A DNA stretch of 64,000 nucleotides, taken from IMG/VR virus record IMGVR_UViG_3300031993_000003. One strand, written 5' to 3'. The position numbers were made by a program, and so were the translations under genes. Of this stretch, positions 47,710 through 64,000 are shown piece after piece (positions within the stretch are counted from its first letter, which is position 1; each line of letters opens with the position of its first letter). Below the pieces are notes generated by a model. That model ran no database searches, was not told the origin of the DNA, and was given only the letters and a program-made list of their open reading frames with translations. Source of the DNA: a virus.

Positions 47710-47755
47710 CTGAGTTCATGAAGTGATTTATGAAATCCCCCGGTATACCGGGGGA

Positions 47756-47770: not shown

Positions 47771-47921
47771 TTTAAAAAAGATTGGCAAAATGAACGACTT
47801 CATCATTCTGGACCACGAGGAAGGTCCAACAAATGTAAATTAAAATTTTACATTTAAACCCTTGACAACAGGGTATTTTTAATATAATTTTCAGAGAGAA
47901 CAAACAACAAAGGAGCACACC

Positions 47922-48578: not shown

Positions 48579-49039
48579 TGGCAGTCTACGTGAAGCAGAA
48601 GAAGGACCGCTGGCTCCCGGAGGAGGTTGCACTACTCCGCATAGGCCAGGTACCCGAGGGACGAACCCTCGCTGCCGCCCGGGCCAAGGCCAAGACGCTC
48701 GGCATCACCCTGTTCGACCGGGAAGGCCCGGGTACCAGGTGGACCCCCGATGAAATCGACTCCCTGGAGAAGGGGGTGCAGCCTCCCGGACGCTCCCAGG
48801 TGGCATGCACGTACAAGGGGATATCCCTTGGCCTGGACGTAAGGTTCGACGACGACGGCAACATGTATGTCACCCAGAAGGTACCGGGAGGCGACCGCAG
48901 GAAGTCCCTGCTGGAACGCGCCAGGAAGTACGCCATGATGAAGGACTGCGGTCAGTCCCTGGCGGAAATAGGAAGGCGCGACGGTGTGTCGCGCCAGCGT
49001 GTGAACGAGATTATCGGCGAGCTAACTATTCGTCGCTGA
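48578..49039 (+). CDS. Hypothetical protein with a C-terminal HTH (sigma region-4-like: KDCGQSLAEIGRRDGVSRQRVNEIIGE).
   Basis: HTH pattern at the C-terminus. Confidence 0.4.
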   Translation: MAVYVKQKKDRWLPEEVALLRIGQVPEGRTLAAARAKAKTLGITLFDREGPGTRWTPDEIDSLEKGVQPPGRSQVACTYKGISLGLDVRFDDDGNMYVTQKVPGGDRRKSLLERARKYAMMKDCGQSLAEIGRRDGVSRQRVNEIIGELTIRR

Positions 49040-50171: not shown

Positions 50172-50266
50172 GTCAAGTTCCGCGGTTTTCTACCAGTTTA
50201 TCCGGTTAGCAAGATTCAAAACGTATAAACTGCGGGTAATCGCGATTAAACCATGGAGATTTCCAT

Positions 50267-51229: not shown

Positions 51230-51242
51230 TATTCGGAAAATC

Positions 51243-51290
51243 AAAAAAATTAAAAATCCCGGGAATTCTCCCGGGATTTTCCTTTTCCAC
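51243..51290. terminator. Bidirectional terminator hairpin (AAAATCCCGGGAATTCTCCCGGGATTTT) between convergent genes.
   Basis: Perfect 10-bp palindromic GC stem flanked by A- and T-runs. Confidence 0.55.
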
Positions 51291-51302
51291 ACAAATAATG
51301 TA

Positions 51303-51971
51303 CTATTGCCGGACCATTTCCCGGATGAAATCCTCGATGTCTATCTCGGTATTCCCTAGTTTTTCCAGAAGGATTCTATTGTCCCTAATGAACTGTTTAA
51401 CTGCATCTATGTCGGATGCAGACAGTTCCATATCGGGGGATTGTACCAGGATGCGCGGATTATCCTCGATGGACATCGGAATCATGTCACGCGTGATTGG
51501 ACGGTCACCCTTGTCTCGCTGAAACTTGATTCTGTTTGCATGGCCAGACTCCTTCCATGCACCGCTGTCGTCAACATAAATGTTCACCGGCAATCCAGTC
51601 TTGTTCTTTCGGAGGCATGCCATCTCAAACAATGAATCACCAGAATCATTGAACGTGGCATTAAACCCTTGCCTTACAGCGTCGGCAAATACTGACTGTC
51701 GATTGCAGTCGTCTAGCATAGAATCAAAATATTTTTGAGATACGGGCATATTTTTGCAATACCACTTTTTCTCACAGTTTATTACGAGAAGTCCTGGTTG
51801 AAGCACCAGTCGCTCTCCTCGCAGTACTTCTTGCGGAGCTTCTGCAGGGCCTGCTTGTGTTTGCTCCTGATATAGTCCTTGCTGCTCCCGGTGACTCCGG
51901 CGATGGACGCGAAGGACCACGTATGGCCGCTCATGCGCCCGTCGGTGTCGGCCTCGTCCTTCATGTAGCAC
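51303..51971 (-). CDS. Hypothetical protein.
   Basis: 222 aa. Confidence 0.45.
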   Translation of the reverse strand: MLHEGRGRHRRAHERPYVVLRVHRRSHREQQGLYQEQTQAGPAEAPQEVLRGERLVLQPGLLVINCEKKWYCKNMPVSQKYFDSMLDDCNRQSVFADAVRQGFNATFNDSGDSLFEMACLRKNKTGLPVNIYVDDSGAWKESGHANRIKFQRDKGDRPITRDMIPMSIEDNPRILVQSPDMELSASDIDAVKQFIRDNRILLEKLGNTEIDIEDFIREMVRQ

Positions 51972-52552
51972 TTGTCGACGATGTCCTTCTCCTCTTTGTC
52001 GAGGACGCAGGAGATGCTGTCGGTGATTGTCCGGTATTCCCTGGTGGCCGAGTAGTTGACCACGGAGTCGGCGGCTTCCCCTTCGAGGGTGTCGAACAGG
52101 GTGAGGCTACCGCCTTCCTTGACGGACTTGTAGCCGGACTCGAGCTTGACGTACTTGTCGCACTTGTTGGCCTTCACGATGTTCTCCGGGAGGTGGATGA
52201 GTCGGTCCTCGTAGCATTCCTTGTTCATTGCGGAGAACACGTGGTTGCGGAGGAACGTCCAGAAGCGGTTTCCCTGGGTCGGGTCGAACAGTTCGATTGC
52301 ACGGTCGATGGCCAGCATAGCGGCGGAAATGAGCTCCTCCACGTTGCCCTTGAAGTGCTTGTACTTGTCCTTGCTGGCCATCTCCATGATGGCCGGTAAC
52401 TGCTTCTCGAACAGTAGGTTACGGGCTATTATGTCGCCCTTCTTGGCCCGCATGATGATGGAGTTCTCGGCATCAGCCGTGTATGCCGCCTTGCTGGCCC
52501 TGGTGTATACCTTCCTTACCCTGTCCTTGAACTGCTCCGTTGCCTTTTCCAT
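51782..52552 (-). CDS. Sigma-70-family RNA polymerase sigma factor.
   Basis: Region-2-like (…FDPTQGNRFWTFLRNHV…) and region-4.2 HTH (SFASIAGVTGSSKDYIRSKHKQALQKLRK). Confidence 0.55.
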   Translation of the reverse strand: MEKATEQFKDRVRKVYTRASKAAYTADAENSIIMRAKKGDIIARNLLFEKQLPAIMEMASKDKYKHFKGNVEELISAAMLAIDRAIELFDPTQGNRFWTFLRNHVFSAMNKECYEDRLIHLPENIVKANKCDKYVKLESGYKSVKEGGSLTLFDTLEGEAADSVVNYSATREYRTITDSISCVLDKEEKDIVDKCYMKDEADTDGRMSGHTWSFASIAGVTGSSKDYIRSKHKQALQKLRKKYCEESDWCFNQDFS

Positions 52553-52673
52553 TCTTTCGTCTCCGGTTAGTTTGTTGTTAAGTTGTGTTCTTTTGAAAAT
52601 AATTTCGTGATAGAAATATAATAAATAAATCCATCACGAAACATATTTTTCAAAAATAATTTGTAAAAAATTA

Positions 52674-53270
52674 TTACTCCTGCTCGATGAAGAGTTCGGG
52701 GTGGACCCTGCGCATCGAGGAAAAGCCCTGGCGGCTCACCACCATGCTGTCGAGCAGGCGGATTCCGAGTAGCTTTCCGGCCTCGATTAGACCCTTCGTG
52801 AAGGAGGCATCCTTGCCGGAGAACTCGAGGCTCCCGCTCGGGTGGTTGTGCGCCACGATGATGCCGGTCGCTTGGTCCTCGATTGCGTAACGGTATACCT
52901 CTCCGTAGTTTACGCACACGCCGCCGGCGCTCCCGGTAGCGACAAGGTGACGCCCGATGAGCGTGTTCTCGGAGGTGACGGTGAGGACGACGAGGTTCTC
53001 GACCATCTTGTCCTTGAGGTCGCTGAGGCGCCACGCGACGATGTCCGGGTTGGACAGCGGCAGCATCATGGTGCCGAATACGAACTTGGTGGACATCCCG
53101 GCGGCAGCCGCAATCTTTCGAGCGGTGACCATCGGTACCTTGAGCGCGGAGGCTATCTGCTCCGGCTCGGGAATCGCGCGGCATGTCGCGAGGTAGCTAA
53201 CCGCGCTTTCGGCCACCCGGCGGTTGCCGAGCAGTGTGGCCATGAGTGTGATTGTTTCGCTGTTTGCCAT
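52674..53270 (-). CDS. radC: RadC-like JAB/MPN-domain protein.
   Basis: JAMM-like motif …GIIVAHNHPSGSLEFSGKD…. Confidence 0.6.
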   Translation of the reverse strand: MANSETITLMATLLGNRRVAESAVSYLATCRAIPEPEQIASALKVPMVTARKIAAAAGMSTKFVFGTMMLPLSNPDIVAWRLSDLKDKMVENLVVLTVTSENTLIGRHLVATGSAGGVCVNYGEVYRYAIEDQATGIIVAHNHPSGSLEFSGKDASFTKGLIEAGKLLGIRLLDSMVVSRQGFSSMRRVHPELFIEQE

Positions 53271-53311
53271 GATTGACTCCTGTTGTTGAAAAATCGAAAT
53301 ATTTTCCCTGC

Positions 53312-54586
53312 CTATGCGTACATGACCGTCTCGGGTCCCTGCACCCAGCCCAGGTCAGCGAGACGCTTTCCTGCCGCTGCGCATGCCTTAATCTCATCGT
53401 CCGTAAGCATGCACCCGTGCAGTCTCGTCGGCACGTCGCCGTCCGGGCCCACGTAGAGCATGTCCCCGCGTCCGCACAGGGTCTCCGCTCCCCCGCGGTC
53501 GATGATGACCTGGGAGTCGGTCCTGGAGGCCACCTTCAACGCCACGCGGGTGGAGAGGTTGGCCTTCAGGGCGCCCTTCACCACGTCGGCGCTAGGACGC
53601 TGCGTGGCCAGCACCAGGTGGATACCCGCGCTCCTTGCCTTCGCAGCGAGGACGGAGAGGGGTTCCTCGAATGCCGCCCCGAAGGACACCATAAGGTCAT
53701 AGAACTCGTCGATTACCACCACGACCCTCGGGAAGATGTTCCCTACGCTGTAGTGGCGGCCCTCATAGTCGAAAACGATTATTTTTTCCGCGTCGCGGAT
53801 TACCGAGTTGCACGCATCGAGACTGTTCACCCCGACGTGGCGGAAGAAGGCCATGCGGAACCTCATAGTCTCCACCATGTGCTCCACCACCTCCACCGCG
53901 TCATCGGTGCCGTACGCGACGTTCACCGCCAGGCCGCCCTCGCGAGTCATCCCCCCGATGGAGGGATGGCCGGAAAAAGAATTAAATTCCGTGCCCTTCG
54001 GGTCCACGATGATGACCCTGGCCTCGCCCGGGAAGTAGTTCGTCACTATCCCGCAAATCAAAGAATTCAGGAACACGGACTTGCCGGAGCCGCTCTGCCC
54101 GGCCACCAGCATGTGCGGGGCCTTCGCCACGTCCACCGTGTACGGCCTGCCGGCAGTGTCCACGCCGAAGCACACCTTCAGGCCCGCCCCGCCGCCGCAC
54201 GGCACGACTACGCCGCTCGGGACAGCCACGCGCTCCATGTTCGGTACCTCCACCGCGAGGCACACCCTGCCGTTCCACATCGTCTCTCCGATGTAGACCT
54301 TCGCGGAGCCGACCCCGAGACGCAGCCCGAGGTCCCTGCGGAGGTTCTCTATCCTGGAAATGTGCTCCGTGTCCTTGCTCAGCTCGAGGATGTACGTCGA
54401 CACCACCGGGCCCCTCTCGGTGCCCACTACCTTCGCCCCCACGCCGTTCGACCTGAAGAACGCGTCGATGCGGCTCCCCATGTCGTCAGCCGGGAACTCC
54501 GGCATGATTCCGCCGAAGATGCCGGAAGTGGACTTCCTCCACACTCCAAGGTATCTCGGGTCGTGCCATTCGCTGTAGTAGGACAT
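53312..54586 (-). CDS. FtsK/SpoIIIE-family DNA translocase ATPase.
   Basis: Walker A LVAGQSGSGKSVFLNSLI; motif IIVDPKGTEF; Walker B VVVIDEFYDL. Confidence 0.6.
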   Translation of the reverse strand: MSYYSEWHDPRYLGVWRKSTSGIFGGIMPEFPADDMGSRIDAFFRSNGVGAKVVGTERGPVVSTYILELSKDTEHISRIENLRRDLGLRLGVGSAKVYIGETMWNGRVCLAVEVPNMERVAVPSGVVVPCGGGAGLKVCFGVDTAGRPYTVDVAKAPHMLVAGQSGSGKSVFLNSLICGIVTNYFPGEARVIIVDPKGTEFNSFSGHPSIGGMTREGGLAVNVAYGTDDAVEVVEHMVETMRFRMAFFRHVGVNSLDACNSVIRDAEKIIVFDYEGRHYSVGNIFPRVVVVIDEFYDLMVSFGAAFEEPLSVLAAKARSAGIHLVLATQRPSADVVKGALKANLSTRVALKVASRTDSQVIIDRGGAETLCGRGDMLYVGPDGDVPTRLHGCMLTDDEIKACAAAGKRLADLGWVQGPETVMYA

Positions 54587-54655
54587 ATCGCTATTCTCCG
54601 TTAAATTTGACGTTTTTCCTTTACATTCCCTCTATGCCACAGGGAATCCTCCCAG

Positions 54656-54680
54656 GCATCCCCCGGGCGTACCCGGTAGT
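54656..54680 (-). promoter_or_regulatory. GC-rich upstream motif (top strand …GCATCCCCCGG…CCCGGTAG), variant copy, upstream of the FtsK-like gene.
   Basis: Shares the GCATCCCCCGG core with 11 other copies. Confidence 0.35.
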
Positions 54681-54689
54681 TCCCGGGAG

Positions 54690-55355
54690 CTACCTCCCGT
54701 CCCACCCGACATCCACCTCCCGGTAGACATCGCGGGTGTTCCTCCGGTGCATGTCGGGCCCCTCGTAGTATTCGACCTGGCGCCTGTACACCGAATCAGC
54801 GCACTTCCCGAACAGCCTAGGCTTCGTCCGGTGGGATATGTCGAAGAAGATGTCCCCCGGCACTCCACGGGAAGTGTACCGGCCCGGGTTGTCTCCCTTC
54901 CGGTAATACTTCGCGCCAAGGACGCGCATGCGCCCGTCCCCCGACGAGGTAACAACTATGTCCGGGCAGTGGGAAACCACCCCCGTCACCATCACAGCCT
55001 GAGGGCCCGGATAGGCGGCATCGTACTCGCAGGTGAATCCCCTGCACTCGCCGCCCTCCCTCACCATTATCACCTGGCGCAGGTGCCTCACGGTCACGTC
55101 CGGGCAGCGCCAGGCGTATTCCCCGGTGTAAGGGTCGGTATACCTCCCGGCAGGTACATCGAGGTCCCCCAGGAACACGCAGTAGCGCCTCCCGTCCTCC
55201 ACCCGCAGCTCCCCGGTACGCCCCGGGAGGTCCCAGGCCGTACTGGTTGCACCCGGGATGTAGGGCATAGAGAAATTGAAGTCCGACGGAACCGGGTCCG
55301 CCGGGCATATGCCGGCGAAGGCCAGCCCGAAGGCAATCGTGGCAATCCTATTCAT
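54690..55355 (-). CDS. Secreted hypothetical protein (signal peptide).
   Basis: MNRIATIAFGLAFAGICPA…. Confidence 0.45.
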   Translation of the reverse strand: MNRIATIAFGLAFAGICPADPVPSDFNFSMPYIPGATSTAWDLPGRTGELRVEDGRRYCVFLGDLDVPAGRYTDPYTGEYAWRCPDVTVRHLRQVIMVREGGECRGFTCEYDAAYPGPQAVMVTGVVSHCPDIVVTSSGDGRMRVLGAKYYRKGDNPGRYTSRGVPGDIFFDISHRTKPRLFGKCADSVYRRQVEYYEGPDMHRRNTRDVYREVDVGWDGR

Positions 55356-55692
55356 GGGTGACCCCCTTCATGGAAACGGCACGCTGGACGGCCCGCAGCA
55401 CCGCCCCGGAAACCTTGCCGTAGGGCTCCACCTTGCCGTGGGCCCCGCGGCAGTCCAGCGACAGCGAAAGCGCCTGTATGCCCCCGTCCGTGCGGAGACG
55501 GAATACAATCCTCGGGACCACCGGGGAACCTCCCGGGAGACCCGCGCGGGAAAGGAGCGCCTCCCTCTCCCCGTCAGTCGAGAAGGCCATCTCGGCTATA
55601 ACCGTGGCCTGGCCGTTCCTCCTGCGCGTGGTCGTGACGCTGAAAATCTTCACGTATCTCATATCTCTCTCCTTTCCTGCCTTGCAATCCAC
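55348..55692 (-). CDS. Hypothetical protein.
   Basis: 114 aa. Confidence 0.4.
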   Translation of the reverse strand: MDCKAGKERDMRYVKIFSVTTTRRRNGQATVIAEMAFSTDGEREALLSRAGLPGGSPVVPRIVFRLRTDGGIQALSLSLDCRGAHGKVEPYGKVSGAVLRAVQRAVSMKGVTHE

Positions 55693-55710
55693 GTATCCCG
55701 CCAGTAACCT

Positions 55711-55742
55711 CCCGGAAGCATCCCCCGGGAAAACCCGGTGGT
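55711..55742 (-). promoter_or_regulatory. GC-rich upstream motif copy (CCTCCCGGAAGCATCCCCCGGG…CCCGGTGG).
   Basis: Core plus CCGGTGG half-site. Confidence 0.4.
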
Positions 55743-55821
55743 TCCCCGGGAAATCCCCCTGGAGGACACGGGAAGGTCCCCGGCACGTGCCGGGGGCCCT
55801 CCGGGAGACGTAAAATTTTCC

Positions 55822-56073
55822 TTACAGCGGGGGCATGTCCTCGAAGTCCACTATGCGCTTGTCAATGAACCATTCCTTGCCCTTGTGGTTCTCCACCTCG
55901 GCCCCGGTGTACTGCATGGCCCAGTCCCTCCCGAAACGGGCCATGAAGATGTTCCTGGCCTCCTCGTAGGCATCCGGGCATTCCCTCTCGTAGGGGACGG
56001 TAACGCGCACGTAGATGTCCTTGTTGGGGCTGTCACAGCCGAAGGTGAAGTAGTAGCTAGTCTTTCCTGCCAT
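55822..56073 (-). CDS. Hypothetical protein.
   Basis: 83 aa. Confidence 0.4.
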   Translation of the reverse strand: MAGKTSYYFTFGCDSPNKDIYVRVTVPYERECPDAYEEARNIFMARFGRDWAMQYTGAEVENHKGKEWFIDKRIVDFEDMPPL

Positions 56074-56136
56074 ATTTGACTCCTTGATGTATGTTCCTAT
56101 TGTATATATCGTCTCGCCCGCCGAAAATGTAAAGCG

Positions 56137-56517
56137 CTATGCCGACGCCATGCGGGAAACGACCTCGCCCAGGGCAGTGCGGCTGAACTTGCAGCGTTCG
56201 CGCATGCTAGGCTTCCCGGGACCGTCATGGCGGCTCACCAGCACGGAAGATTCCTCCTTCACCCGGCCGTCCCCGGCATAATCCAGCTCGAACTCGAAGG
56301 TCCACCTGGACTTGCCCCCTGACGTGGACACGCAGGCCACCAGCCCGCGCTTACCCCCCGCAAAAAGGTTGCTGCTGTAAGATATCCCGTTGCTTTCCTC
56401 CGGAGAAAGCGCCCCAGCCATGCACACCGATACCATCAGGCGGAGGTCCGCCAGCAGTACGTTCACGTGCTTGACTGCATTTCCGAGGTCCTTGCCGTAG
56501 TCTATCCTTGCACTCAT
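56137..56517 (-). CDS. Hypothetical protein.
   Basis: 126 aa. Confidence 0.4.
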   Translation of the reverse strand: MSARIDYGKDLGNAVKHVNVLLADLRLMVSVCMAGALSPEESNGISYSSNLFAGGKRGLVACVSTSGGKSRWTFEFELDYAGDGRVKEESSVLVSRHDGPGKPSMRERCKFSRTALGEVVSRMASA

Positions 56518-56551
56518 GTCATATCTCCTTGTCTATCTGTTTGCAACTCCC

Positions 56552-57556
56552 CTATCCATCCCGGGCAACCCCCGGAGCATCCCCCGGGACATCCCGGTGG
56601 TCCACGCGGAGACGGCACAGGAGCCTCTTGTACTGCTCCCTGCCCCCGACGTAAGCCTTCATCCGTATCCCGGTATCCCACCCGGAGGGTCTGCCGTGAG
56701 GGTAGGAACACCCCAATATCTCGAACTGCTCCGGGCACAGCCGGTTCAAGGCCGTCACCGGGACCCCGAACACCCCGTAGTAGTCCGACGGGATGCACTC
56801 CGCCCACGGAACGTCTATGGCGTCGTACCGGTCGTACCTACGGTAGCCCCTGCACTTTTCCGGCTTGTGCTCCAGGTTCCACCCCATGCTCTCCAGGTGC
56901 ATCTCCCGGTGCCTCCCCGGATAGTCCACCGTGGTAAGCCAGCATACCCCGGACACCCGCATCACCGCCTCTCCGCCGACCTCCCGCTCCTCGTGGTAGC
57001 TCTCCGCGTACCCGTAACCCTCCGGCACACGGAAGAACATCCCGCGGTTGAAACCCGTCGCCCCCGCCCAGCACTCGCCGTCCCTTATCGCCGGGAACAC
57101 CTCCGGGTACGTCACGCAGTTCACCGGGGCTATCACCGAAAAACCCTTCCCGGTACCAAGGAGCCACCGGGAGAAACCGTGCATCAGGCTGAAAGGGGGA
57201 TTGGTCGCTATGAAGTCGCACTCCCCCGCAAGGTCCGTGCTCTCCGCAGAACAGTAGCTCCCGTCCCCCGCCATGTCCCAGGTCACCCATTCCCTACCGT
57301 CATAGGACCCGGCCTTCCCGTGCCCTCCCGGTACGTACCCGGAACACACCACGCGGGACAGCCCGAAAGAGGAAAAATTATCCGCGAAAAATTTCGGGAA
57401 CGCGCTCTCTCCCGGGAGGTCGCACGGGCAGTACACCGCCTTCCCCTCGAGCGTCCCCTCCGGATATGCCGAGAACTCGGCCCCTATGTCCGACTCCCGA
57501 GTGTAGAACTCGTCGCTCCTGCTCTCCCGCGCCTTGACCAGCTGTCCACGTCCCAT
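56552..57556 (-). CDS. Putative DNA N6-adenine methyltransferase.
   Basis: Motif IV IATNPPF; N-terminal DEFYTRESD (the EFYTP pattern common in phage adenine MTases). Confidence 0.5.
   Translation of the reverse strand: MGRGQLVKARESRSDEFYTRESDIGAEFSAYPEGTLEGKAVYCPCDLPGESAFPKFFADNFSSFGLSRVVCSGYVPGGHGKAGSYDGREWVTWDMAGDGSYCSAESTDLAGECDFIATNPPFSLMHGFSRWLLGTGKGFSVIAPVNCVTYPEVFPAIRDGECWAGATGFNRGMFFRVPEGYGYAESYHEEREVGGEAVMRVSGVCWLTTVDYPGRHREMHLESMGWNLEHKPEKCRGYRRYDRYDAIDVPWAECIPSDYYGVFGVPVTALNRLCPEQFEILGCSYPHGRPSGWDTGIRMKAYVGGREQYKRLLCRLRVDHRDVPGDAPGVARDG
56574..56600 (-). promoter_or_regulatory. GC-rich upstream motif copy.
   Basis: GGAGCATCCCCCGGGACATCCCGGTGG. Confidence 0.4.
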
Positions 57557-57601
57557 CCTATAGTCTCCAAAAATATTTTCCCGTAAGGAAAATATAGCAT
57601 C

Positions 57602-57951
57602 TTACCCGTCGCTTACCTCGGTCTCCCCGGAAAGCAGCCCGGTGAGTATCCGGGAGTACCGGGAATGCTCCGAACTTCCCGGGTCGCACACACCGCAGGC
57701 CTCCGTGTAGTGAGCTATGGCCGCCTCCCGGGTGCCCCAGTGCACCGTCTCCCCGTAGCACGTCACGTCAACCCCGTGGACGGCCTCCATCAGCACCGAG
57801 GGAGTTCCGGTATGCACCGGGAGGGGAAGGCCGAGCCTGTCCATGAGGGCAACCCCGGAAATTCCCTCGATGGAACGGGTGAACTCGTCCGGGTTCACCC
57901 CGTCATCCAGGACTACCGGAATCTTCAATGTAAAATTAAATTTTCTCATGT
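57602..57951 (-). CDS. Hypothetical protein (start trimmed to MRKFNFTLK…).
   Basis: The upstream part of the listed ORF runs through the GC-rich promoter motif. Confidence 0.4.
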
Positions 57952-58102
57952 CATACCCCGAAACATGCCGTGGCGGCCTCGTCCGCGGAGCGTCCCCCAA
58001 AGGGTCGCCAGCGATACGCAGACCGTCTCGCCTTCCGTAAACTTTGCCGTGCTCACGATTCTGTCTCCTTTTGTTTGAATCTTGTATTCCGGCGGGAATG
58101 CC

Positions 58103-58131
58103 CGGGAGCATCCCCCGGAAATCCCCGGTGG
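58103..58131 (-). promoter_or_regulatory. GC-rich upstream motif copy.
   Basis: GGGAGCATCCCCCGGAAATCCCCGGTGG. Confidence 0.4.
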
Positions 58132-58132
58132 G

Positions 58133-58560
58133 CTACCCGAACTCCTTCTTCAGTTCCTCGTATTGCTTCCGGCGCCTGTCCTTCTCGATGGCTTCCCATT
58201 TCTTGCGGTCAGCCTCCGCCTTGGCCCTGCGTTCCTCCTCGACCTTGCGTTTCTCCTCGCCGTGGATGCGCTTCAGTTCCTTGTATGCCTCGGCACGTGT
58301 CTCCTCGCACATGCACTTTTCCAGGAGAGCCCCGTCCACGCTGAACGTCTCGTCGTATTCGGTATCGCCGCCCTGGATTTCCCAGTCGACCGTAATCACG
58401 TAGCGGTCACCCTTGCGTTCGATGCCCTTGAATGTATACCAGCCATGATTAGATATATACATGGCTCCGAGCTTCTCGGCTACCCAGTGCATGTCCTTCC
58501 ATAGGCTGTCAATCGTCCTTTTCGCCTTTATGTAGGCGTCTATCTTTTCCTTTCCCGTCA
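58133..58560 (-). CDS. Hypothetical K/E-rich protein (start trimmed to MTGKEKIDAY…).
   Basis: As above; GGAG lies before the ATG. Confidence 0.45.
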
Positions 58561-58610
58561 TAGCGAGGTCTCCTTTTCTGTTTCTATCCACCGTATCCTC
58601 CCGGTAGCCC

Positions 58611-58641
58611 CCGGGAGCATCCCCCGGGAAAATCCGGTGGG
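58611..58641 (-). promoter_or_regulatory. GC-rich upstream motif copy (~45 nt upstream of the ATG at 58560).
   Basis: GGGAGCATCCCCCGGGAAAATCCGGTGGG. Confidence 0.45.
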
Positions 58642-58643
58642 CC

Positions 58644-58889
58644 CTACCGGGGTATCCGGTACACATGCACCGAGCTGTACCAGTCGCCACCGGTAGGCTC
58701 CCCGAAACTCCTCTCGGACACCTTCCCGTAGCCGTTCTCCTCCATCACCCAGTCCAGGTGGAGGTGGTCGTGCTTCCAGTCCCCGTCCGCCACCGTGACC
58801 TCCACGTTCCCCTCGCGGGTCACGCTCCAGTCGTAGGGCAAGTCGTTGTCCTTGAAGAACTTGCTAACCTTGTCAATCAGTGTCTGCAT
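58644..58889 (-). CDS. Small hypothetical protein (start MQTLIDKVSKFF…).
   Basis: The start was trimmed from the listed ORF. Confidence 0.4.
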   Translation of the reverse strand: MQTLIDKVSKFFKDNDLPYDWSVTREGNVEVTVADGDWKHDHLHLDWVMEENGYGKVSERSFGEPTGGDWYSSVHVYRIPR

Positions 58890-58900
58890 GTCTATTCCTC

Positions 58901-59275
58901 TTACTGCATCTCCCCGTCGACCGGGACGATGGAATAGATGGTCTCGATGCAGTTCTTGGGCTTGATGACGATTACGTCGACCTTGCCGTCCACGAGCTGC
59001 ATCTTCAGGTCGAGAAGGTCCTCCTCGTGCTCGTCCTTGTCGGTGATGCGGAAATGCACCGGGTTGCACAGGTCGGCACGGTAGGCCACCACGTCGACGT
59101 ATTCCTCGTCGCAGTTCACCAGCGCGTCGTACAGCGTGAGGAACAGCTCGTCAGCGGTAGCCCTCCGGCCCGCCGGGGAGGCCAGTACCTTCGTGAAGTC
59201 CGGGAAGTGCCTCCTCCCAATCGAGAAGGCGCTGCCGCCCACGATTAGGCCGATGTAGTGTTTCAGTTCGCTCAT
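58901..59275 (-). CDS. Hypothetical protein.
   Basis: 124 aa. Confidence 0.45.
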   Translation of the reverse strand: MSELKHYIGLIVGGSAFSIGRRHFPDFTKVLASPAGRRATADELFLTLYDALVNCDEEYVDVVAYRADLCNPVHFRITDKDEHEEDLLDLKMQLVDGKVDVIVIKPKNCIETIYSIVPVDGEMQ

Positions 59276-59337
59276 GATAACGTCTCCTTTTCAGTTAAAA
59301 GTTTTTCCCTGCCTCCCGTATCCTCCCGGAAGCCCCC

Positions 59338-59365
59338 GGGAGCATCCCCCGGCACAACCCGGTGG
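59338..59365 (-). promoter_or_regulatory. GC-rich upstream motif copy.
   Basis: GGGAGCATCCCCCGGCACAACCCGGTGG. Confidence 0.45.
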
Positions 59366-59642
59366 CTACCAGTCCACCTTCTTCCCGGTGACCTTCTCGA
59401 TAGTGAGGTTCTTCTTTCCGGCGGTGTGTACATAGAGATAGCAGAAGGGACCTCCGTCACCTACGATGAAGCGGTGGCCCTTTCCGTTCCACCCGCTGTA
59501 CTCCGCGAGGCGCACGATGGTTCCACCGGTAAGGACCTTACGGGTCTCGTCCTGGATGGCGAGCATCATTTCTTCCATAGAGGAAAATGTTTTCCCCTTG
59601 CTCCATTCGGCAAGATGTTCAGTATATTTGGTGATGGCCATG
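59366..59642 (-). CDS. Hypothetical protein (start MAITKYTEHL…).
   Basis: Trimmed start; the GC motif lies upstream. Confidence 0.4.
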
Positions 59643-59702
59643 ATTCTTTCTCCTTGTTGAAATTCTCTGCCCACAATATCGCATATCCTCCCGGTACTCC
59701 CC

Positions 59703-59730
59703 GGGTGCATCCCCCGTCCATACCCGGTGA
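59703..59730 (-). promoter_or_regulatory. GC-rich upstream motif copy (variant).
   Basis: GGGTGCATCCCCCGTCCATACCCGGTGA. Confidence 0.35.
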
Positions 59731-59733
59731 TTC

Positions 59734-59940
59734 TCACCCGTAGTACTCCGACAACGCCTCCTCCACGCTGCCCCCAACGAAGTCCCGGTCCGCCATAGGG
59801 TCCTCTACAGAAAAAAATTCCCCGTAGTCAACCAGCGACAGACGACCCCACCGAACACGGTCACCATCCAGCCTCACCCCGGTAGCTCCCGGGAGACCCC
59901 TCGATTCCAAATAATCCCTAACCTTCTCCACGTTCCCCAT
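59734..59940 (-). CDS. Small hypothetical protein.
   Basis: 68 aa. Confidence 0.35.
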   Translation of the reverse strand: MGNVEKVRDYLESRGLPGATGVRLDGDRVRWGRLSLVDYGEFFSVEDPMADRDFVGGSVEEALSEYYG

Positions 59941-59944
59941 ATAC

Positions 59945-60277
59945 CTATCCCCCTGTCACGAATATCCTTACCCCGCCAACGTCAACCTCGTTCACAGAGC
60001 CGGTGGCAACCGCGCCCTCGAGAGCCTCCAGCAACTCCCCGCACCCCTTCCCGCTCTCAATAGAAGGAAGGACGAAACGGCACCTCCCAGTACCCCCCAG
60101 GCTGTTGTGGAAGCCCACGACCGTAGTCCCCTGACCGTAAGCCTGCTGGCGCTCCACTATAGAACGTACCTCACGCGCCGCCTCCCGGAGTCCCCGGAAG
60201 GTACCGTCGCTCCACGTAGACCTCGCCACGCCGTTCACCTTCACCTCGCTCTGCCCGTATACTACTACGTGTACCAT
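59945..60277 (-). CDS. Hypothetical protein.
   Basis: 110 aa; GC motif upstream. Confidence 0.45.
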   Translation of the reverse strand: MVHVVVYGQSEVKVNGVARSTWSDGTFRGLREAAREVRSIVERQQAYGQGTTVVGFHNSLGGTGRCRFVLPSIESGKGCGELLEALEGAVATGSVNEVDVGGVRIFVTGG

Positions 60278-60342
60278 GTCTATGTCTCCTATGTTGAGTG
60301 TTAAATTCCTTTCTCACCCCATATACATCCCGGCATGCCCCG

Positions 60343-60369
60343 CAGGCATCCCCCGGTTCTCCCCGGTGG
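60343..60369 (-). promoter_or_regulatory. GC-rich upstream motif copy (variant).
   Basis: CAGGCATCCCCCGGTTCTCCCCGGTGG. Confidence 0.4.
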
Positions 60370-60699
60370 CCACCGGGAGGTACCTACGGATATTACCCGC
60401 ATGCACGCCGGGTGATTCCTTCGGGTGATGCCCGACAGTACACCACCGACAGTACACCAGCATGATACCGGGAGGTAATATGGCAACTCATGGACCGGTT
60501 ACACGGGGCACGTACCCCCACTATCCCCCACCGCGTACCACATATACCCACTACCGCCATGACACCCTGCTCACCCGTGCAGGGTATCCAGTGCCCTGGC
60601 TATGGGACGCACGCCAACCTCCCGGGAGACCCCCGTCGCTGAATACATGGGGCGCTCCGGGGGTTACCGGGAGGAAACCGGGTCAAACCCGTGAAAAAC

Positions 60700-61550
60700 G
60701 ACAAATTTGTTAGCGTTTTTGAGCTAAAAACGCCACTTGGTTAACCAAAATTTACAGAAAACACCTCCCGGAACCTTCCGTTCCGCTTTTTGGTCAAAAA
60801 ACGGGTACCTGCCAGTACCCCCACCGCGTACCTGGGGAATCTCCCGGAATCTCCCGGAACCTCCCGGAATCTCCCGGAATCTCCCGGAACCTCCCGGAAC
60901 CTCCCGGAAGCACCCAGTAACCTCCCGGAATCTCCCGGAAGCAACCCAGTAACCTCCCGGAATCTCCCGGAATCTCCCGGAACCTCCCGGAAGCACCCAC
61001 GTATGCCACCCGTCCCCGGAGGGGAACCTGGGGCAGACCGGGAGGCGACCGGGAGGCGACCGGGATGTAACCATGGTATATACCGGGAGGCGACCGGGAG
61101 GCATCCCCCGGTGGGACCCGGTGGGTCACGGTGGGGAGAACCGGGAGGTACCTCCCGGAGCAGACCTGGGAATCGTACTGGGGGAATACCGGGAGGTGAC
61201 CGGGAGGTGTCCACCCTTGAACCCGACGAGCGCGTAGGACCTGGTAATAACCGGGAGACATCCCCCGGTGGGACCCGGTGGGATACATGGTGGGGAACCG
61301 TGGGGAATTCCGGGAGGTACCTCCCGGTAGCACCCTTGAACCCGACGAGCGCGTAGGAGGTGTCCACCCTTGAAGCCGACCAAAGCGTATGACTGGGGAG
61401 CCACCCTTGAATCCGACCAAAGCATATGAGGAGTCCACCCTTGAAGCCGACCAAAGCGTATGACCGGGGAGCCACCGGGAGGTTGAGAAATAAAAAAATA
61501 AAAAAGTCCCCCCGGGGAGACCCGGGAGGACAGTAGGGGACGACACAAGA
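60700..61550. repeat. Non-coding iteron-rich region. Repeat family (a): ~15 tandem copies of CTCCCGGAA(T/C) at 60833-60990. Family (b): GACCGGGAGGC ×4-5 at 61025-61100. Family (c): 5 copies of a ~31-bp unit CCACCCTTGAANCCGAC…GCGTATGA at 61207-61470. The region ends in an A-rich run.
   Basis: Direct reading of the repeats; the only ORF here (60741-61889, minus) is a low-complexity artefact of the repeats. Confidence 0.65.
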
Positions 61551-61557
61551 AAAAATT

Positions 61558-62109
61558 TTAGGAATAGAACACCGGGGTGGTGGTGATGCGGGGGTTTTGT
61601 ACGGGGTTACCTTCGGTGTCGCGCGCCAGGAGGGAACCACGGGCGGAAGCGATGGCTTCCTCGATGGTGTCCTCGGGCGGGAGGTCGTATACCTTGACGA
61701 GCTTACCGTTTTCGTCGACGGTATTGATTGTGGGGACGAAGGCATCCGGGGTGGGGGGTTCGTCGACCTTCTCCTGGAGGGAGTCGAGTCGTTCGCGGAT
61801 GCCCTCTGCGGTTTCCTGGAACTCGTCCTTGAATGAGTCGGTCTCGTCCGAGAGGGTGTCGAGCTTGTCGGAGAGTTCATCCAGGGCATCCTGCTCGGCC
61901 TTCTTCTTACCCCATTTCGGGAGATGGAAGGCGGGTGAGCCGACTGCCTTGACGAAGGCGGCGCCTGCGAGGATGAGGATGATGGCGTAGACCGCGACGG
62001 TCTCGACGATGGTGGTCGGGGAGGCCTGTCCGGTGACGATGAGGAAGGTGTTGAAGCCGGCGACCGCGAGGATAGCTACGGCTACGGTGTAGATGAGTGT
62101 CTTGAGCAT
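61558..62109 (-). CDS. Membrane protein (2-3 N-terminal TM helices) with a coiled-coil/acidic tail.
   Basis: MLKTLIYTVAVAILAVAGFNTFLIVTG…. Confidence 0.5.
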   Translation of the reverse strand: MLKTLIYTVAVAILAVAGFNTFLIVTGQASPTTIVETVAVYAIILILAGAAFVKAVGSPAFHLPKWGKKKAEQDALDELSDKLDTLSDETDSFKDEFQETAEGIRERLDSLQEKVDEPPTPDAFVPTINTVDENGKLVKVYDLPPEDTIEEAIASARGSLLARDTEGNPVQNPRITTTPVFYS

Positions 62110-62167
62110 TGGTTGACTCCTTGGTTTATGGTTTAAGTTCTTGATTGTTATGGTATCGGGAGTTACC

Positions 62168-62197
62168 GGGAGGCATCCCCCGGTGGCATCCGGTGGT
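62168..62197 (-). promoter_or_regulatory. GC-rich upstream motif copy.
   Basis: GGGAGGCATCCCCCGGTGGCATCCGGTGG. Confidence 0.4.
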
Positions 62198-62199
62198 AA

Positions 62200-62763
62200 T
62201 TACTGGTTGAGCATCCTGTCGATGATGTTGGCGAGTTCCTGTAGTTTTTCCTTGTCGCCGTTGACCGCGTGAACCCGGATGGACATGGAGAGCCTCTTGA
62301 GGAAGCGTGGGTCCTTCCGGGAGGGGAATGGTAGCTGGTCGAGGGGGATACGGGAGAGTTCGGCCTCCTTCTTGAGTCGGAGTTCCTCGGCCTGTGCCTG
62401 GGCGGCGAGCGCCTTGAGCTGTAGGTAGTGCTGGTGTGCGTCGTCTGCGGAGGTGTAGTTTGCCTTGGAGAGTGTACCGGTGGCGCAGTTCCCGCATGAG
62501 ACGGGGAAGCCCTTGTTGATTCTGGAGTAGTGGAGGTCCTTGCCGCAGGAACAGCGGTAGGGGTACGGGAGCCCGAGGAGCATGGCGAAGCACTCGTCGA
62601 CGCGTGCGCCGTGGTCGTGGTAGACGTGGTCCTCGAAGTTTCTTTTCGGGAAGGGCTGCCTGCACAGGGGGCAGTGGATGGTGGTACGGGAGTACTTCAT
62701 GCCCTCGGTCTTCTGGTGGGTGACGTACTGTGGTTTCGGCTCGGTAATGAACTTGAGTTGCAT
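62200..62763 (-). CDS. Hypothetical Cys/His-rich (zinc-finger-like) protein.
   Basis: HCPLC…H…H; CSCG…CGNC. Confidence 0.45.
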   Translation of the reverse strand: MQLKFITEPKPQYVTHQKTEGMKYSRTTIHCPLCRQPFPKRNFEDHVYHDHGARVDECFAMLLGLPYPYRCSCGKDLHYSRINKGFPVSCGNCATGTLSKANYTSADDAHQHYLQLKALAAQAQAEELRLKKEAELSRIPLDQLPFPSRKDPRFLKRLSMSIRVHAVNGDKEKLQELANIIDRMLNQ

Positions 62764-62794
62764 CGTTGTCGGCTCCTTTAAAAAATTTTTCTGA

Positions 62795-62870
62795 AACGGG
62801 TATTCCTCCCGGAGATTGCCGGGAGCATCCCCCGGGGATACCCGGTGGGAATTACGGGAGGCTACCGGGA
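62795..62870 (-). promoter_or_regulatory. GC-rich upstream motif copy embedded in a ~70-bp repeat (copy 1 of 2).
   Basis: GTATTCCTCCCGGAGATTGCCGGGAGCATCCCCCGGGGATACCCGGTGGGAATTACGGGAGGCTACCGGG; the identical repeat recurs at 63465-63540. Confidence 0.5.
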
Positions 62871-62880
62871 GGAATCCGGG

Positions 62881-63443
62881 TTAATCGTCGGTGAAAACGG
62901 GTTCGATTTCCTCGAGGTCTTTGATTTTATCCTTGTCGTTGGTAATTTCGATGGAATTGAATGCCCATGAGCCTACCAGTGGGTCTTCCTTGTGGTAGTC
63001 GCCGCCACCGCGCCCGTTGCCGAGGGCGGTAAGGATAGAAACCGGGAATATGCACCATCCGTCCTTGTCCGAGGAGGCCTCCTTGTACTTCTTGAGGTCT
63101 ACGAACTGTTTCTTGTCGTGGTTGACGAGGTAGGCGTAGTCGTCGAGGGAGAAGCCATCGGGCGCGGGGTCGATGGGTTCGTCGATGTCCTCGTCCCATA
63201 CCCTGCCGTAGGAGAAGCCGAGTGCCTGGCATTCGTCTTCCTTTGCGTAGTCGCCGCACCAGCATACCTGGGTGGGTTTGTCGACGATGGAAGCGGCGAG
63301 CGCCTTGCAGACGCGGTTGTCCCACCAGGAGTGTTCGAGGAGCTTCGCCATGACGTAGCTGCCGTCGCCCTTGATGTTGCGGTCGTTGACGGTGAGCTTG
63401 CCGTCGGAAGTCTTGGTAACGATTTTGTAGTATTGGCCCATGA
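62881..63443 (-). CDS. Hypothetical protein (start MGQYYKIV…).
   Basis: AAAAGGAGAC ribosome-binding site before the ATG. Confidence 0.45.
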
Positions 63444-63464
63444 TTATGTCTCCTTTTGTTGTAT

Positions 63465-63540
63465 TGCAGGTATTCCTCCCGGAGATTGCCGGGAGCATCC
63501 CCCGGGGATACCCGGTGGGAATTACGGGAGGCTACCGGGT
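63465..63540 (-). promoter_or_regulatory. GC-rich upstream motif copy embedded in a ~70-bp repeat (copy 2 of 2).
   Basis: Near-identical to 62795-62870. Confidence 0.5.
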
Positions 63541-63575
63541 CCTGCCGGTGCCCCCGTCCTCACCCGGTGGGTCAG

Positions 63576-64000
63576 CTAGTAGTTCTCCGCTTCCTTCTTG
63601 GTACGGAAGAAGTGGATTCCGGTGGAACACTCGACGTTGTACGCGAGGTCGAAGTCCTTGACCTTTAAAATTTTTCCCGGAGTATAAGTGAACTCAGGGT
63701 CATGCCGGGAATGGAGTACCTTGCACTTACCCATGTCTAAATGGAGTACCTTGCACTTACCTATGTCTATTACCTTGGCGGTGTTCGTGCGGCACTTGGA
63801 ACCGTTGATGCAGAACACTACGGCACCCTTGGGGATTTCCAGGGTAATAACCACTCCTTCGGCAGTTGTCTTGTAGCCCTTAATGGGTTTGTCGAGGATG
63901 ATTCCCTTGCGGAATTCATCTTTAGGAGAAAGTGTCGTCCCGGAGAGGTTCGCCCCGGAGAGTGTCGCCCCGGCGAGGTCCGCCTGTCGGAGGTCCGCCC
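63576..64000 (-). CDS. Pentapeptide-repeat protein, 5'-partial (continues beyond the window end).
   Basis: Translating the minus strand from the window end gives ADLRQ-ADLAG-ATLSG-ANLSG-TTLS…, in frame with the listed ORF 63576-63854. Confidence 0.55.
   Translation of the reverse strand, partial: ADLRQADLAGATLSGANLSGTTLSPKDEFRKGIILDKPIKGYKTTAEGVVITLEIPKGAVVFCINGSKCRTNTAKVIDIGKCKVLHLDMGKCKVLHSRHDPEFTYTPGKILKVKDFDLAYNVECSTGIHFFRTKKEAENY

What the first reader, a model, noticed from the sequence alone, without database searches (positions are those of the whole stretch)
60700..61550. 850-bp iteron-rich non-coding region: candidate replication origin or packaging site
Three distinct direct-repeat families lie side by side: ~15× 10-bp CTCCCGGAAY, 4-5× GACCGGGAGGC, and 5× a ~31-bp unit CCACCCTTGAANCCGAC…GCGTATGA. 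They are followed by an A-rich tract and flanked by the GC-rich promoter motifs. The only ORF here is a repeat-generated artefact. Arrays of iterons next to an A/T-rich tract are typical of phage and plasmid origins or pac sites.
Basis: seen in the sequence. Interest (0 to 1): 0.6.

Follow-up and report, generated by a model that had tools for sequence, protein, structure and literature searches.

The report
Conserved iteron-rich control region, probable origin
A 1.3-kb gene-free stretch of an uncultured ~195-kb rumen phage is packed with helically phased copies of the phage's own promoter motif around an AT-rich patch and an invariant 21-bp core; relatives conserve it and it looks most like a replication origin, but that is unproven.

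Summary
The repeats are real and far beyond chance. They form part of a larger non-coding unit, window 60278-61557, between two minus-strand genes.

New here:
A genuine AT-rich patch (60702-60764) lies at the other end, beside an invariant 21-bp core (60681-60701).
- The 10/11-bp iterons are sub-elements of a ~50-nt promoter found before about 24 neighbouring genes.
- The heptamer CCGGGAG is selected at DNA level genome-wide (70 sites inside genes against 17 expected).
- Nine of ten relatives examined (44-79% identity in the flanking protein) keep the layout: C-rich iterons, G-rich iterons, AT-rich patch, core, C-rich iterons, GTGGGG repeats. One relative swapped the iteron to TACGGGA and kept the core.
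- Synonymous-site GC and AT skews step at the region with origin polarity in most relatives, although all flanking genes share one strand. Skew elsewhere in the window does not fit a single-origin model.

No initiator, terminase or partition gene lies nearby. There are no DnaA boxes, no Rfam hit and no RNA covariation.

Best reading: a transcription-activated, iteron-type origin bound by a genome-wide phage DNA-binding protein (about 0.4). Rivals are a transcription-factor hub, a packaging or terminus site, and a centromere-like site.

The parts
60278..61557 (-). Whole non-coding unit between the 110-aa gene (59945-60277, minus strand) and the 183-aa gene (61558-62109, minus strand)
   Evidence: No ORF with a coding GC1/2/3 signature. 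A syntenic gap of 0.7-1.3 kb follows the 183-aa homologue in 9 of 10 relatives.
61488..61531 (-).
   Evidence: Terminator scan: 11 pairs, 9 of them GC, tail TTTTTTATTT. Equivalent terminators occur in L053, L056, L057, L061 and L078.
61211..61468 (.). Five ~34-bp units CCACCCTTGAANCCGAC-N-GCGTA(G/T)GA, starting at 61211, 61330, 61364, 61401 and 61435
   Evidence: A single TTCAAGGGT(G)-containing copy lies at a similar upstream offset in L057, L061 and L065.
61141..61158 (.). Perfect 18-bp palindrome CCGGGAGGTACCTCCCGG; a second copy lies at 61310-61327
   Evidence: (I7).
61310..61327 (.). Second copy of the 18-bp palindrome
61243..61282 (-). Gene-less promoter-like module 2 (blocks A, B and C of the phage promoter class)
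   Evidence: Matches the consensus CCCACCGGGT-N4-CCGGGGGATG-CTCCCGG.
61075..61125 (-). Gene-less promoter-like module 1. It closely resembles the promoter of the 183-aa gene (62152-62196), ends in TATATACC, and points toward the arrays and the AT-rich patch.
61036..61102 (+). Five 11-bp iterons (G/T)ACCGGGAGGC; two more lie at 61187-61208
60836..60992 (-). About 15 tandem 10-bp iterons, TTCCGGGAGR on the minus strand. The length is polymorphic by 30 bp between samples.
60795..60820 (-). Terminator-like hairpin plus T6 between the 10-mer array and the AT-rich patch; specific to this genome
   Evidence: Not seen in relatives.
60702..60764 (.). AT-rich patch with phased A/T tracts; candidate DNA unwinding element
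   Evidence: GC is 0.32 in 60 bp, the second lowest in 52-64 kb. The equivalent patch has GC 0.20-0.46 in all 10 relatives.
60681..60701 (-). Invariant core TCGTTTTTCACGGGTTTGACC (consensus CGTT-KWW-C-R-CG-RR-TTTGACC)
   Evidence: It is invariant in six relatives found independently of the pattern (A1) and present in five more found with it. It is unique in the window.
60565..60584 (-). Hairpin CCCTGC-ACGGGTGA-GCAGGG, conserved only in the close clade
60515..60554 (-). Phased GTGGG(G) repeats, the inverse of promoter block A (CCCAC)
   Evidence: A G-rich block at +100 to +200 from the core occurs in all relatives.
60432..60459 (.). Two tandem copies of the 14-bp unit CCGACAGTACACCA
60321..60369 (-). 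Promoter of the 110-aa gene, belonging to the same GC-rich promoter class

Best explanation
The region is a cis-acting assembly site on the DNA of an uncultured ~195-kb rumen phage. It is most likely a replication origin of the 'iterons plus promoter plus unwinding element' type.

Shown:
- A 1.28-kb gene-free unit carries 32 CCGGGAG sites at 10-11-bp (one helical turn) spacing.
- These sites are arranged in opposite orientations on the two sides of an AT-rich patch and an invariant 21-bp core.
- The same motif forms the sub-elements of the phage's own about 50-nt promoter class.
- The motif is also kept at high frequency inside genes across the genome.

Inferred:
- One phage-encoded, still unidentified, sequence-specific DNA-binding protein recognises this motif. 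It acts at the promoters and coats the arrays cooperatively along one face of the helix.
- This bends and stresses the AT-rich patch.
- Transcription from the gene-less promoter modules, or from the last promoter-type iteron next to the patch, runs into the AT-rich DNA.
- That transcription helps to open the DNA or to prime synthesis, as at T4 oriF/oriG or the T7 primary origin.
- The invariant core would be the site of a second, conserved factor or of the start of unwinding.
- The terminator upstream shields the site from read-through transcription.
For: Anatomy:
- Phased 10/11-bp arrays, palindromes and gene-less promoter modules.
- An AT-rich patch that is the second-lowest-GC 60-mer in 12 kb.

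Conservation:
- Nine of ten relatives examined (44-79% identity in the flanking 183-aa protein) have a syntenic 0.7-1.3-kb gap with the same order of blocks when aligned on the core.
- The core is invariant, while iteron number, order and even sequence change.
- L078 has 20 TACGGGA and 0 CCGGGAG in its gap. The window has 32 CCGGGAG and 0 TACGGGA.
- L078's promoter-like modules changed in the same way.

DNA level rather than RNA:
- No Rfam hit.
- No consensus structure or covariation.

Composition:
- Total GC skew goes from negative to positive and AT skew falls at the gap in 6 of 6 loci, although all genes are co-oriented.
- At 4-fold sites GC skew is about -0.5 upstream and about 0 downstream. 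AT skew is about +0.4 upstream and about -0.15 downstream. For GC skew, p is 2e-4 in three loci, 0.004 in L061 and 0.07 in L053; AT-skew p ranges from 1e-4 to 0.2.
- The step is also seen in L065, L071 and L076.
- Genes on both sides use the same promoter class.
- One orthologue that sits upstream in three phages and downstream in a fourth has shifted toward the downstream composition (p = 0.02).

Precedent:
- T4 oriF and oriG consist of a factor-dependent middle promoter plus an AT-rich DUE.
- T4 oriE has evenly spaced iterons that are conserved in syntenic regions of relatives.
- Several T4 origins coincide with compositional shifts (PMC3016281).
Against: - No Rep-like initiator, helicase loader, primase or polymerase gene lies within about 10 kb by Pfam, PHROGs or precomputed Pfam.
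- There are no DnaA boxes.
- The iteron motif is not origin-specific. It sits in about 24 promoters and about once per 620 bp genome-wide, so the binding protein is at least also a transcription or chromatin factor.
- Four-fold-site skew varies cluster by cluster elsewhere in the window regardless of strand. It does not fit one origin with two replichores.
- The step is weak in L060 and L078.
- One relative, L058, lacks the element at this position.
- Full-genome skew, termini and read depth could not be examined.
Confidence: 0.4

Rival explanations
1. The region is a binding platform, sink or enhancer-and-boundary for the transcription factor of the GC-rich promoter class. In this reading the arrays are amplified promoter sub-elements. 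They hold or titrate the factor and so time or insulate expression of the two flanking gene clusters, with no role in replication.
For: - The iterons are identical to promoter blocks C and D, and the GTGGGG/CCCAC repeats match block A.
- Iteron and promoter modules changed together in L078.
- The region lies between a terminator and the next promoter, in the middle of a cluster of about 24 promoters.
- Copy number differs between samples.
- L058, the relative without the array, also lacks the dispersed heptamer, with 1 site in 10 kb.
Against: - It does not explain the invariant non-promoter core and the AT-rich patch that are kept while the iterons drift.
- It does not explain the compositional step.
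- 1.3 kb is a large cost for a titration site.
Confidence: 0.25
2. The region is a packaging recognition site or a physical genome end, that is a pac/cos site or the boundary of a direct terminal repeat. This would resemble the repeat arrays and promoters next to the T7 terminal repeat, or the host-takeover gene modules at the ends of SPO1 and T5 (my own knowledge, not tested here).
For: - Repeat arrays plus promoters plus a conserved unique core would suit terminase recognition.
- The flanking clusters of small genes, each with its own promoter, look like early host-takeover modules.
Against: - No terminase or structural gene was found among the roughly 50 of about 85 window ORFs scanned, or within 8 kb beyond the window.
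- The long contigs of three relatives start at unrelated positions: the region lies at about 35, 94 and 145 kb. The assemblies therefore show no fixed end here.
- The polarity of the skew step, negative to positive, is that of diverging replication. It is not what is expected at joined ends of a genome replicated from an internal origin.
Confidence: 0.12
3. The region is a centromere-like or translocase-loading site. In this reading the phased arrays are bound by an adaptor protein for segregation or DNA pumping, as with R1 parC/ParR, pSM19035 omega sites or Streptomyces TraB-clt. The phage FtsK-like ATPase might be the motor.
For: - 10-11-bp phased arrays that overlap promoter elements are typical of ParR- or omega-type centromeres (my own knowledge).
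- In L065 the region directly precedes the p221 / FtsK-like / RadC / sigma gene block.
- TCCGGGAG resembles the TraB recognition sequence, whose reverse complement I recall as TCCGGGTC (recollection, not tested).
Against: - There is no ParA, ParM or TubZ gene within about 10 kb.
- The FtsK-like protein aligns with the FtsK alpha-beta motor up to residue 407 of 424, so it has no gamma (sequence-reading) domain.
- The motif has no strand polarity along the genome.
- L058 keeps p221 and FtsK but has no arrays and no dispersed motif.
- The core was not found with arrays in any of 185,579 species-representative genomes, so there is no sign of a plasmid or prophage state.
Confidence: 0.08
4. The region is a non-coding RNA locus. 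In this reading a roughly 260-nt transcript from module 1 carries about 15 GGGAG(G/A) Shine-Dalgarno-like repeats and acts as a sponge for ribosomes or for an RNA-binding protein.
For: - A promoter-like module lies upstream and a terminator-like hairpin downstream of the 10-mer array.
- The predicted RNA is very stable, with z = -4.3.
Against: - There is no Rfam match and no covariation.
- The terminator-like hairpin and the long G-strand array are specific to this genome.
- Relatives carry mostly the opposite (C-rich) orientation and only 1-3 G-strand copies.
- The predicted stability follows trivially from the inverted arrays.
Confidence: 0.05

Closest known systems
Iteron-type theta origins (lambda ori, P1 oriR/incA, R6K gamma, pSC101)
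   Same: They have phased direct repeats next to an AT-rich stretch. Direct repeats at the origin are combined with inverted repeats of the same motif at promoters, as with Rep monomers at iterons and dimers at operators (my own knowledge).
   Different: - No Rep-like gene is adjacent and there are no DnaA boxes.
- The iterons are only 10-11 bp, against 17-22 bp in the known origins.
- There are about 32 sites, in both orientations.
- The motif also occupies about 24 promoters and the whole genome.
T4 oriF/oriG (MotA-dependent middle promoter plus DUE), T4 oriE iterons, and the T7 primary origin (two phage promoters plus an AT-rich region)
   Same: - A phage-class promoter or factor site is followed by an AT-rich unwinding element.
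- Evenly spaced iterons are conserved in syntenic regions of relatives.
- The site coincides with a compositional shift (PMC3016281; the T7 comparison is my own knowledge).
   Different: - The T4 minimal origins are about 100 bp with one promoter.
- Here there are dozens of amplified promoter sub-elements, an invariant 21-bp core, and no transcriptional divergence at the site.
- Function is untested.
EBV oriP (family of repeats plus dyad symmetry, bound by EBNA1) and papillomavirus E2 sites
   Same: One sequence-specific protein serves promoters and a dense repeat array next to the origin. Palindromic and tandem versions of the same site both occur (my own knowledge; an analogy of how it may work).
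   Different: These are eukaryotic viruses with no homology to this phage. The binding protein here is unknown.
Genome-wide dispersed phage operators (P1 C1 operators; mycobacteriophage L5 gp71 'stoperators')
   Same: A short phage-specific motif is scattered over the genome, including inside genes and at many promoters (my own knowledge).
   Different: - L5 stoperators are orientation-biased and number about 30.
- Here there is about one site per 620 bp, with no orientation bias (36 co-oriented, 33 anti).
- Here there is also a 32-site array.
R1 parC/ParR and pSM19035 omega-binding heptad arrays
   Same: They are tandem repeats of 7-11 bp at helical phase that double as promoter operators (my own knowledge).
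   Different: No partition NTPase operon is adjacent.

Membership tests
Iteron-type replication origin | Cluster of at least 3 phased direct repeats (iterons) | tested here: met
   About 15 x 10 bp, 7 x 11 bp and 5 x 34 bp. Periods of 10-11 bp are also found in relatives.
Iteron-type replication origin | Adjacent AT-rich DNA unwinding element | tested here: met
   60702-60764 has GC 0.32. Equivalent patches have GC 0.20-0.46 in 10 relatives. Unwinding itself was not tested.
Iteron-type replication origin | Cognate initiator (Rep) gene next to the iterons | tested here: not met
   No Rep, helicase-loader or primase family was found within about 10 kb. The neighbours are unknown small proteins, so a novel initiator cannot be excluded.
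Iteron-type replication origin | Host-factor sites (DnaA boxes) | tested here: not met
   There is no conserved TTATCCACA match with at most 1 mismatch. Only two isolated matches occur across 10 relatives.
Iteron-type replication origin | Switch of strand composition with origin polarity | tested here: inconclusive
   A step with the correct polarity occurs at the site in 8 of 10 relatives, at all sites and at 4-fold sites. The pattern elsewhere in the window is not replichore-like, and the full genome was not available.
Iteron-type replication origin | Initiation of replication maps here, or the fragment replicates autonomously | not testable with these tools
   This needs read-depth or marker-frequency data, or an experiment.
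Transcription-primed phage origin (T4 oriF/oriG, T7 primary origin) | Phage-class promoter directed into an AT-rich DUE | tested here: inconclusive
   Gene-less promoter-like modules lie at 61075-61125 and 61243-61282. A block-D iteron at 60764-60771 directly abuts the AT-rich patch. Promoter activity and R-loop formation are untested.
pac/cos packaging site | Adjacent terminase (small subunit) gene | tested here: not met
   No terminase was found among the roughly 50 of about 85 window ORFs scanned, or in the 8-kb extension.
pac/cos packaging site | Physical ends or first headful cut map here | not testable with these tools
   No reads were available. Contig start points in relatives are unrelated to the region.
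Plasmid/phage centromere (parS/parC) | Adjacent operon with a partition NTPase and a centromere-binding protein | tested here: not met
   No ParA, ParM or TubZ gene lies within about 10 kb.
FtsK/SpoIIIE/TraB recognition sequences (KOPS, SRS, TRS-clt) | Strand-polar distribution of the motif along the replicon | tested here: not met
   Plus- and minus-strand counts are balanced in all 6-kb bins, with no switch.
FtsK/SpoIIIE/TraB recognition sequences (KOPS, SRS, TRS-clt) | Translocase with a C-terminal winged-helix gamma domain | tested here: not met
   The phage FtsK-like protein ends 17 residues after the alpha-beta motor, and no gamma-domain Pfam hit was found.
Structured non-coding RNA | Match to a known RNA family, or covariation supporting a fold | tested here: not met
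   Rfam E-values are all at least 0.2 and far below gathering scores. Zero compensatory pairs were found in 10 relatives.

The most novel reading that the evidence does not exclude
A single phage protein reads a short 'self' motif (CCGGGAG) that selection maintains across the entire ~195-kb genome, including inside genes. It uses the motif at dozens of promoters and nucleates on a 32-site array beside the origin. This would be a bacterial-virus counterpart of EBNA1/oriP or papillomavirus E2, coupling transcription, replication start and perhaps marking or condensing of the phage chromosome. Specificity would be re-programmable, since one relative uses TACGGGA around the same invariant core.
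Probability: 0.15. Interest if true: 0.8.

Novelty: new variant of a known kind. Interest (0 to 1): 0.55.

Why it matters
Origins and other cis-acting sites of large uncultured phages are almost entirely unknown. This region offers three things.

- It gives a concrete, conserved and testable candidate for a family of ~195-235-kb rumen phages.
- It shows iterons built from the phage's own promoter elements.
- It reveals a heptamer under DNA-level selection throughout the genome. This implies a so far unidentified global DNA-binding protein.

If one protein links promoters, the array and replication start, that would be an unusual regulatory design for a phage. The swap of iteron specificity around an invariant core would provide a natural system for studying how a protein and its sites co-evolve.

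Tried and rejected
- Known phage genomes. Megablast of the region and tblastn of the 183-aa protein against 50,697 phage records found no match. The FtsK-like protein has only distant hits below 37% identity.
- IMG/VR scans with the 34-bp unit, the promoter and the 10-mer dimer gave only chance single hits or none.
- GTDB genome scan with the core gave 17 chance hits, none with arrays. There is therefore no host or prophage clue.
- Rfam search gave nothing.
- RNA consensus fold around the core showed no structure and no covariation.
- A conserved AT-rich hairpin next to the core is not reproducible across relatives.
- DnaA boxes are absent.
- A KOPS- or Chi-like polar motif is rejected, because no polarity was found.
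- FtsK gamma-domain recognition is rejected, because the domain is absent.
- A resemblance between the core and the 34-bp units is not significant, with p about 0.1.
- Neighbouring proteins of 110, 68, 183, 187 and 205 aa gave no informative Pfam, PHROG or PDB hit.
- Walking to the full 195-kb contig was not possible, because look-ups are limited to window proteins.
- A literature search for this rumen phage group found nothing specific.
- Slippage junk is rejected, because block order and an invariant core are conserved down to 44-45% identity of the flanking protein.

Full report
**Observation**

- TRF reports a 10-bp array at 60836-60992, with 15.4 copies and a 30-bp super-unit. It also reports 11-bp GACCGGGAGGC units at 61036-61102 and 61188-61209, and a 34/71-bp repeat at 61331-61476.
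- Exact searches give 13 CTCCCGGAA in the array plus one at 60765. They also give seven (G/T)ACCGGGAGG(C/T) units and five 34-bp units at 61211, 61330, 61364, 61401 and 61435.
- The 17-mer of the 34-bp unit is expected 0.08 times by chance and occurs 5 times.
- ORFs crossing the region have flat GC1/2/3 of about 0.6/0.63/0.63. Real genes here show 0.6/0.4/0.8.

Two corrections are needed.
- The A-rich tract (61485-61505) is the T-run of an intrinsic terminator on the minus strand, directly after the 183-aa gene.
- The gene-free unit is larger than reported.

**What genome this is**

The window belongs to an uncultured large phage.
- It carries 19 tRNA genes and an NAD-dependent ligase, a CCA-adding enzyme, two TnpB genes and an FtsK-like ATPase.
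- It also carries an EcoRI-like methyltransferase, and RadC and a sigma factor.
- There is no close relative among 50,697 deposited phage genomes.
- The exact 183-aa protein is found on a 195,296-bp ENA contig and on JGI rumen contigs.
- One of these contigs (L044) is identical to the window over the region. The 195-kb contig (L043) differs only by 30 bp, which is three units of the 10-mer array.

**The iterons are promoter parts**

In the 20.5-kb locus L043, which corresponds to the window's minus strand, a composite motif occurs about 24 times. Its consensus is CCCACCGGGT-N4-CCGGGGGATGC-(C)TCCCGG-N5-6-ACCGGGAGG(C)ATAC.
- All copies are in gene orientation, and most lie 57-80 nt before a start codon with a strong ribosome-binding site.
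- Within the window the central block occurs only on the minus strand between 54.6 and 63.5 kb. The non-coding unit therefore sits in the middle of this promoter cluster.
- The 10-mer (TTCCGGGAGR on the minus strand) is block D of the motif.
- The 11-mer (GCCTCCCGGTC on the minus strand) is the junction of blocks B and C.
- CCCAC/GTGGG repeats correspond to block A.
- Two gene-less promoter-like modules (61075-61125 and 61243-61282) point toward the arrays.
- Two perfect 18-bp palindromes, CCGGGAGGTACCTCCCGG, are also present.

**A genome-wide motif**

- CCGGGAGG occurs 73 times in the window against 5.1 expected.
- Inside genes of the first 53 kb, far from the promoter cluster, the heptamer CCGGGAG occurs 70 times. 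Synonymous-codon shuffles give 17.0 +/- 3.9.
- Its orientation is balanced, with 36 sites co-oriented with the gene and 33 opposite. There is no strand polarity along the window.
- Density is 32 sites per 1.28 kb in the unit, against about one per 620 bp elsewhere.

**Relatives**

Homologues of the 183-aa protein at 44-79% identity led to further contigs. A metagenome scan with the conserved core led to more.
- Nine of ten relatives carry a 0.7-1.3-kb gap directly after the homologue's terminator. The gaps contain 10-11-bp phased CTCCCGG/CCGGGAG-type arrays.
- When aligned on the core, all nine show the same order:
  - C-rich iterons at -600 to -200.
  - G-rich iterons at -150 to -50.
  - An AT-rich patch with GC 0.20-0.46.
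  - The core CGTT-KWW-C-R-CG-RR-TTTGACC.
  - C-rich iterons at 0 to +100.
  - GTGGGG repeats at +100 to +200.
- The core is invariant in six relatives that were found independently of it. It is unique in the window.
- Iteron number and sequence drift between relatives.
- L078 has 20 TACGGGA and no CCGGGAG in its gap, and its promoter-like modules changed in the same way.
- L058, at 46% identity, lacks the gap and the arrays and has only one CCGGGAG in 10 kb.

**DNA or RNA**

- Rfam gives nothing near threshold.
- The alignment of ten relatives has no consensus fold and no compensatory pair.
- A hairpin in the AT-rich patch is not reproducible across relatives.
- The high predicted stability of a putative array transcript follows from the inverted arrays.
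- The features are therefore best read as protein-binding DNA.

**Strand composition**

- In six loci the total GC skew changes from negative to positive and the AT skew falls exactly at the gap, although all flanking genes are on one strand.
- At 4-fold degenerate sites the upstream genes have GC skew of about -0.5 and AT skew of about +0.4. The downstream genes have about 0 and -0.15. The GC-skew step reaches p = 2e-4 in three loci, 0.004 in L061 and 0.07 in L053; AT-skew p ranges from 1e-4 to 0.2.
- L065, L071 and L076 show the same step. L060 and L078 show it weakly.
- The polarity is that of an origin.
- One orthologue lies upstream in three phages and downstream in L071. There it has moved toward the downstream composition (p = 0.02).
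- Against a replication cause, 4-fold skew elsewhere in the window changes by gene cluster irrespective of strand and cannot be fitted to one origin.
- Large phages can have several origins. In T4 only some of them coincide with compositional shifts (PMC3016281).

**Neighbours**

- No initiator, helicase loader, primase, terminase or partition NTPase is detectable within about 10 kb.
- The FtsK-like protein lacks a sequence-reading gamma domain.
- The only universal neighbour is the 183-aa membrane and coiled-coil protein.
- There are no DnaA boxes.
- The core plus arrays is absent from species-representative bacterial genomes.

**Interpretation**

The best-supported reading, at about 0.4, is a replication origin.
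- It would be built from phased sites for a genome-wide phage DNA-binding protein.
- It also has an AT-rich unwinding patch, an invariant core and inward-pointing promoter modules.
- It would work like T4 oriF/oriG or the T7 primary origin. It also resembles iteron origins, in using direct repeats at the origin and inverted repeats of the same motif at promoters (PMC3016281; the remainder is my own knowledge).

The main rival, at about 0.25, is a pure transcription-factor platform. The two readings are not exclusive. Packaging or terminus (0.12), centromere-like (0.08) and non-coding RNA (0.05) readings have less support.

The decisive data are the full-genome skew and read-depth and read-start profiles of the 195-kb contigs, which were out of reach here.

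Noticed in passing
window 54600-63600 (minus strand) and L043 690-17420: There are about 24 copies of a long (about 50-nt) GC-rich composite promoter-like motif, one before almost every small gene, each followed by a strong AAGGAG ribosome-binding site. The cluster looks like a host-takeover or early-to-middle gene cluster.
   Followed up: yes
window 6771-47770 (plus strand; 15 sites, e.g. 6771, 13417, 16040, 31513, 47759): A second promoter-like class, TTGCTATATTTG, resembles an extended -10 element with no conserved -35. It occurs 15 times against 0.08 expected. All copies lie on the plus strand before plus-strand genes, often just after a terminator hairpin. These may be the targets of the phage sigma factor.
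   Followed up: partly
window 52560-52680: An extremely AT-rich intergenic stretch (GC 0.13 over 60 bp) lies upstream of the phage sigma-factor gene (51782-52552, minus strand). It contains the inverted repeat TTTCGTGATGG...CTATCACGAAA, which is a probable operator or promoter of a third type.
   Followed up: no
whole window; genes in 1-53000: The heptamer CCGGGAG is about 4-fold enriched inside coding sequence relative to synonymous-codon shuffles, in both orientations. It is nearly absent from the low-GC island at 12-18 kb.
   Followed up: yes
window 21453-28930: There are 19 tRNA genes in a low-GC (0.44-0.50) segment, including an array of 11 at 21453-22410.
   Followed up: no
window 19190-20926 (minus strand) and 41675-43575 (minus strand): There are two TnpB-like genes (Cas12f1-like TNB domain). 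The second lies next to a serine resolvase gene (42991-43575), an IS607-like arrangement.
   Followed up: no
window 33662-38678: A putative metallopeptidase domain protein (DUF2201_N), a CCA-adding or poly(A) polymerase-family enzyme and an AAA_5 (dynein-related) ATPase lie in a row. An NAD-dependent DNA ligase is at 16057-18168.
   Followed up: no
window 63710-63769 and 63935-63984: Two further tandem repeats (30 bp x 2 and 15 bp x 3.3) lie near the right edge of the window. They were not examined.
   Followed up: no
window 62200-62763 (minus strand): The 187-aa protein two genes upstream of the region has C2H2-like and CxxC motifs plus a coiled-coil tail. It is conserved at 75-83% in the close clade only. 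It is a possible nucleic-acid-binding protein with no database match.
   Followed up: partly
window 46000-53300 against 26000-41000 and 53300-60300: Four-fold-site GC skew of the coding strand alternates between blocks of genes, C-rich then G-rich, regardless of strand. No explanation was found; mosaic ancestry or expression class are possibilities.
   Followed up: partly
L065 4039-8936: In this relative the repeat region directly precedes the p221 / FtsK-like / RadC / sigma block. In the window about 12 small genes are inserted between them. The downstream border of the region therefore seems to be a hotspot for gene insertion.
   Followed up: partly
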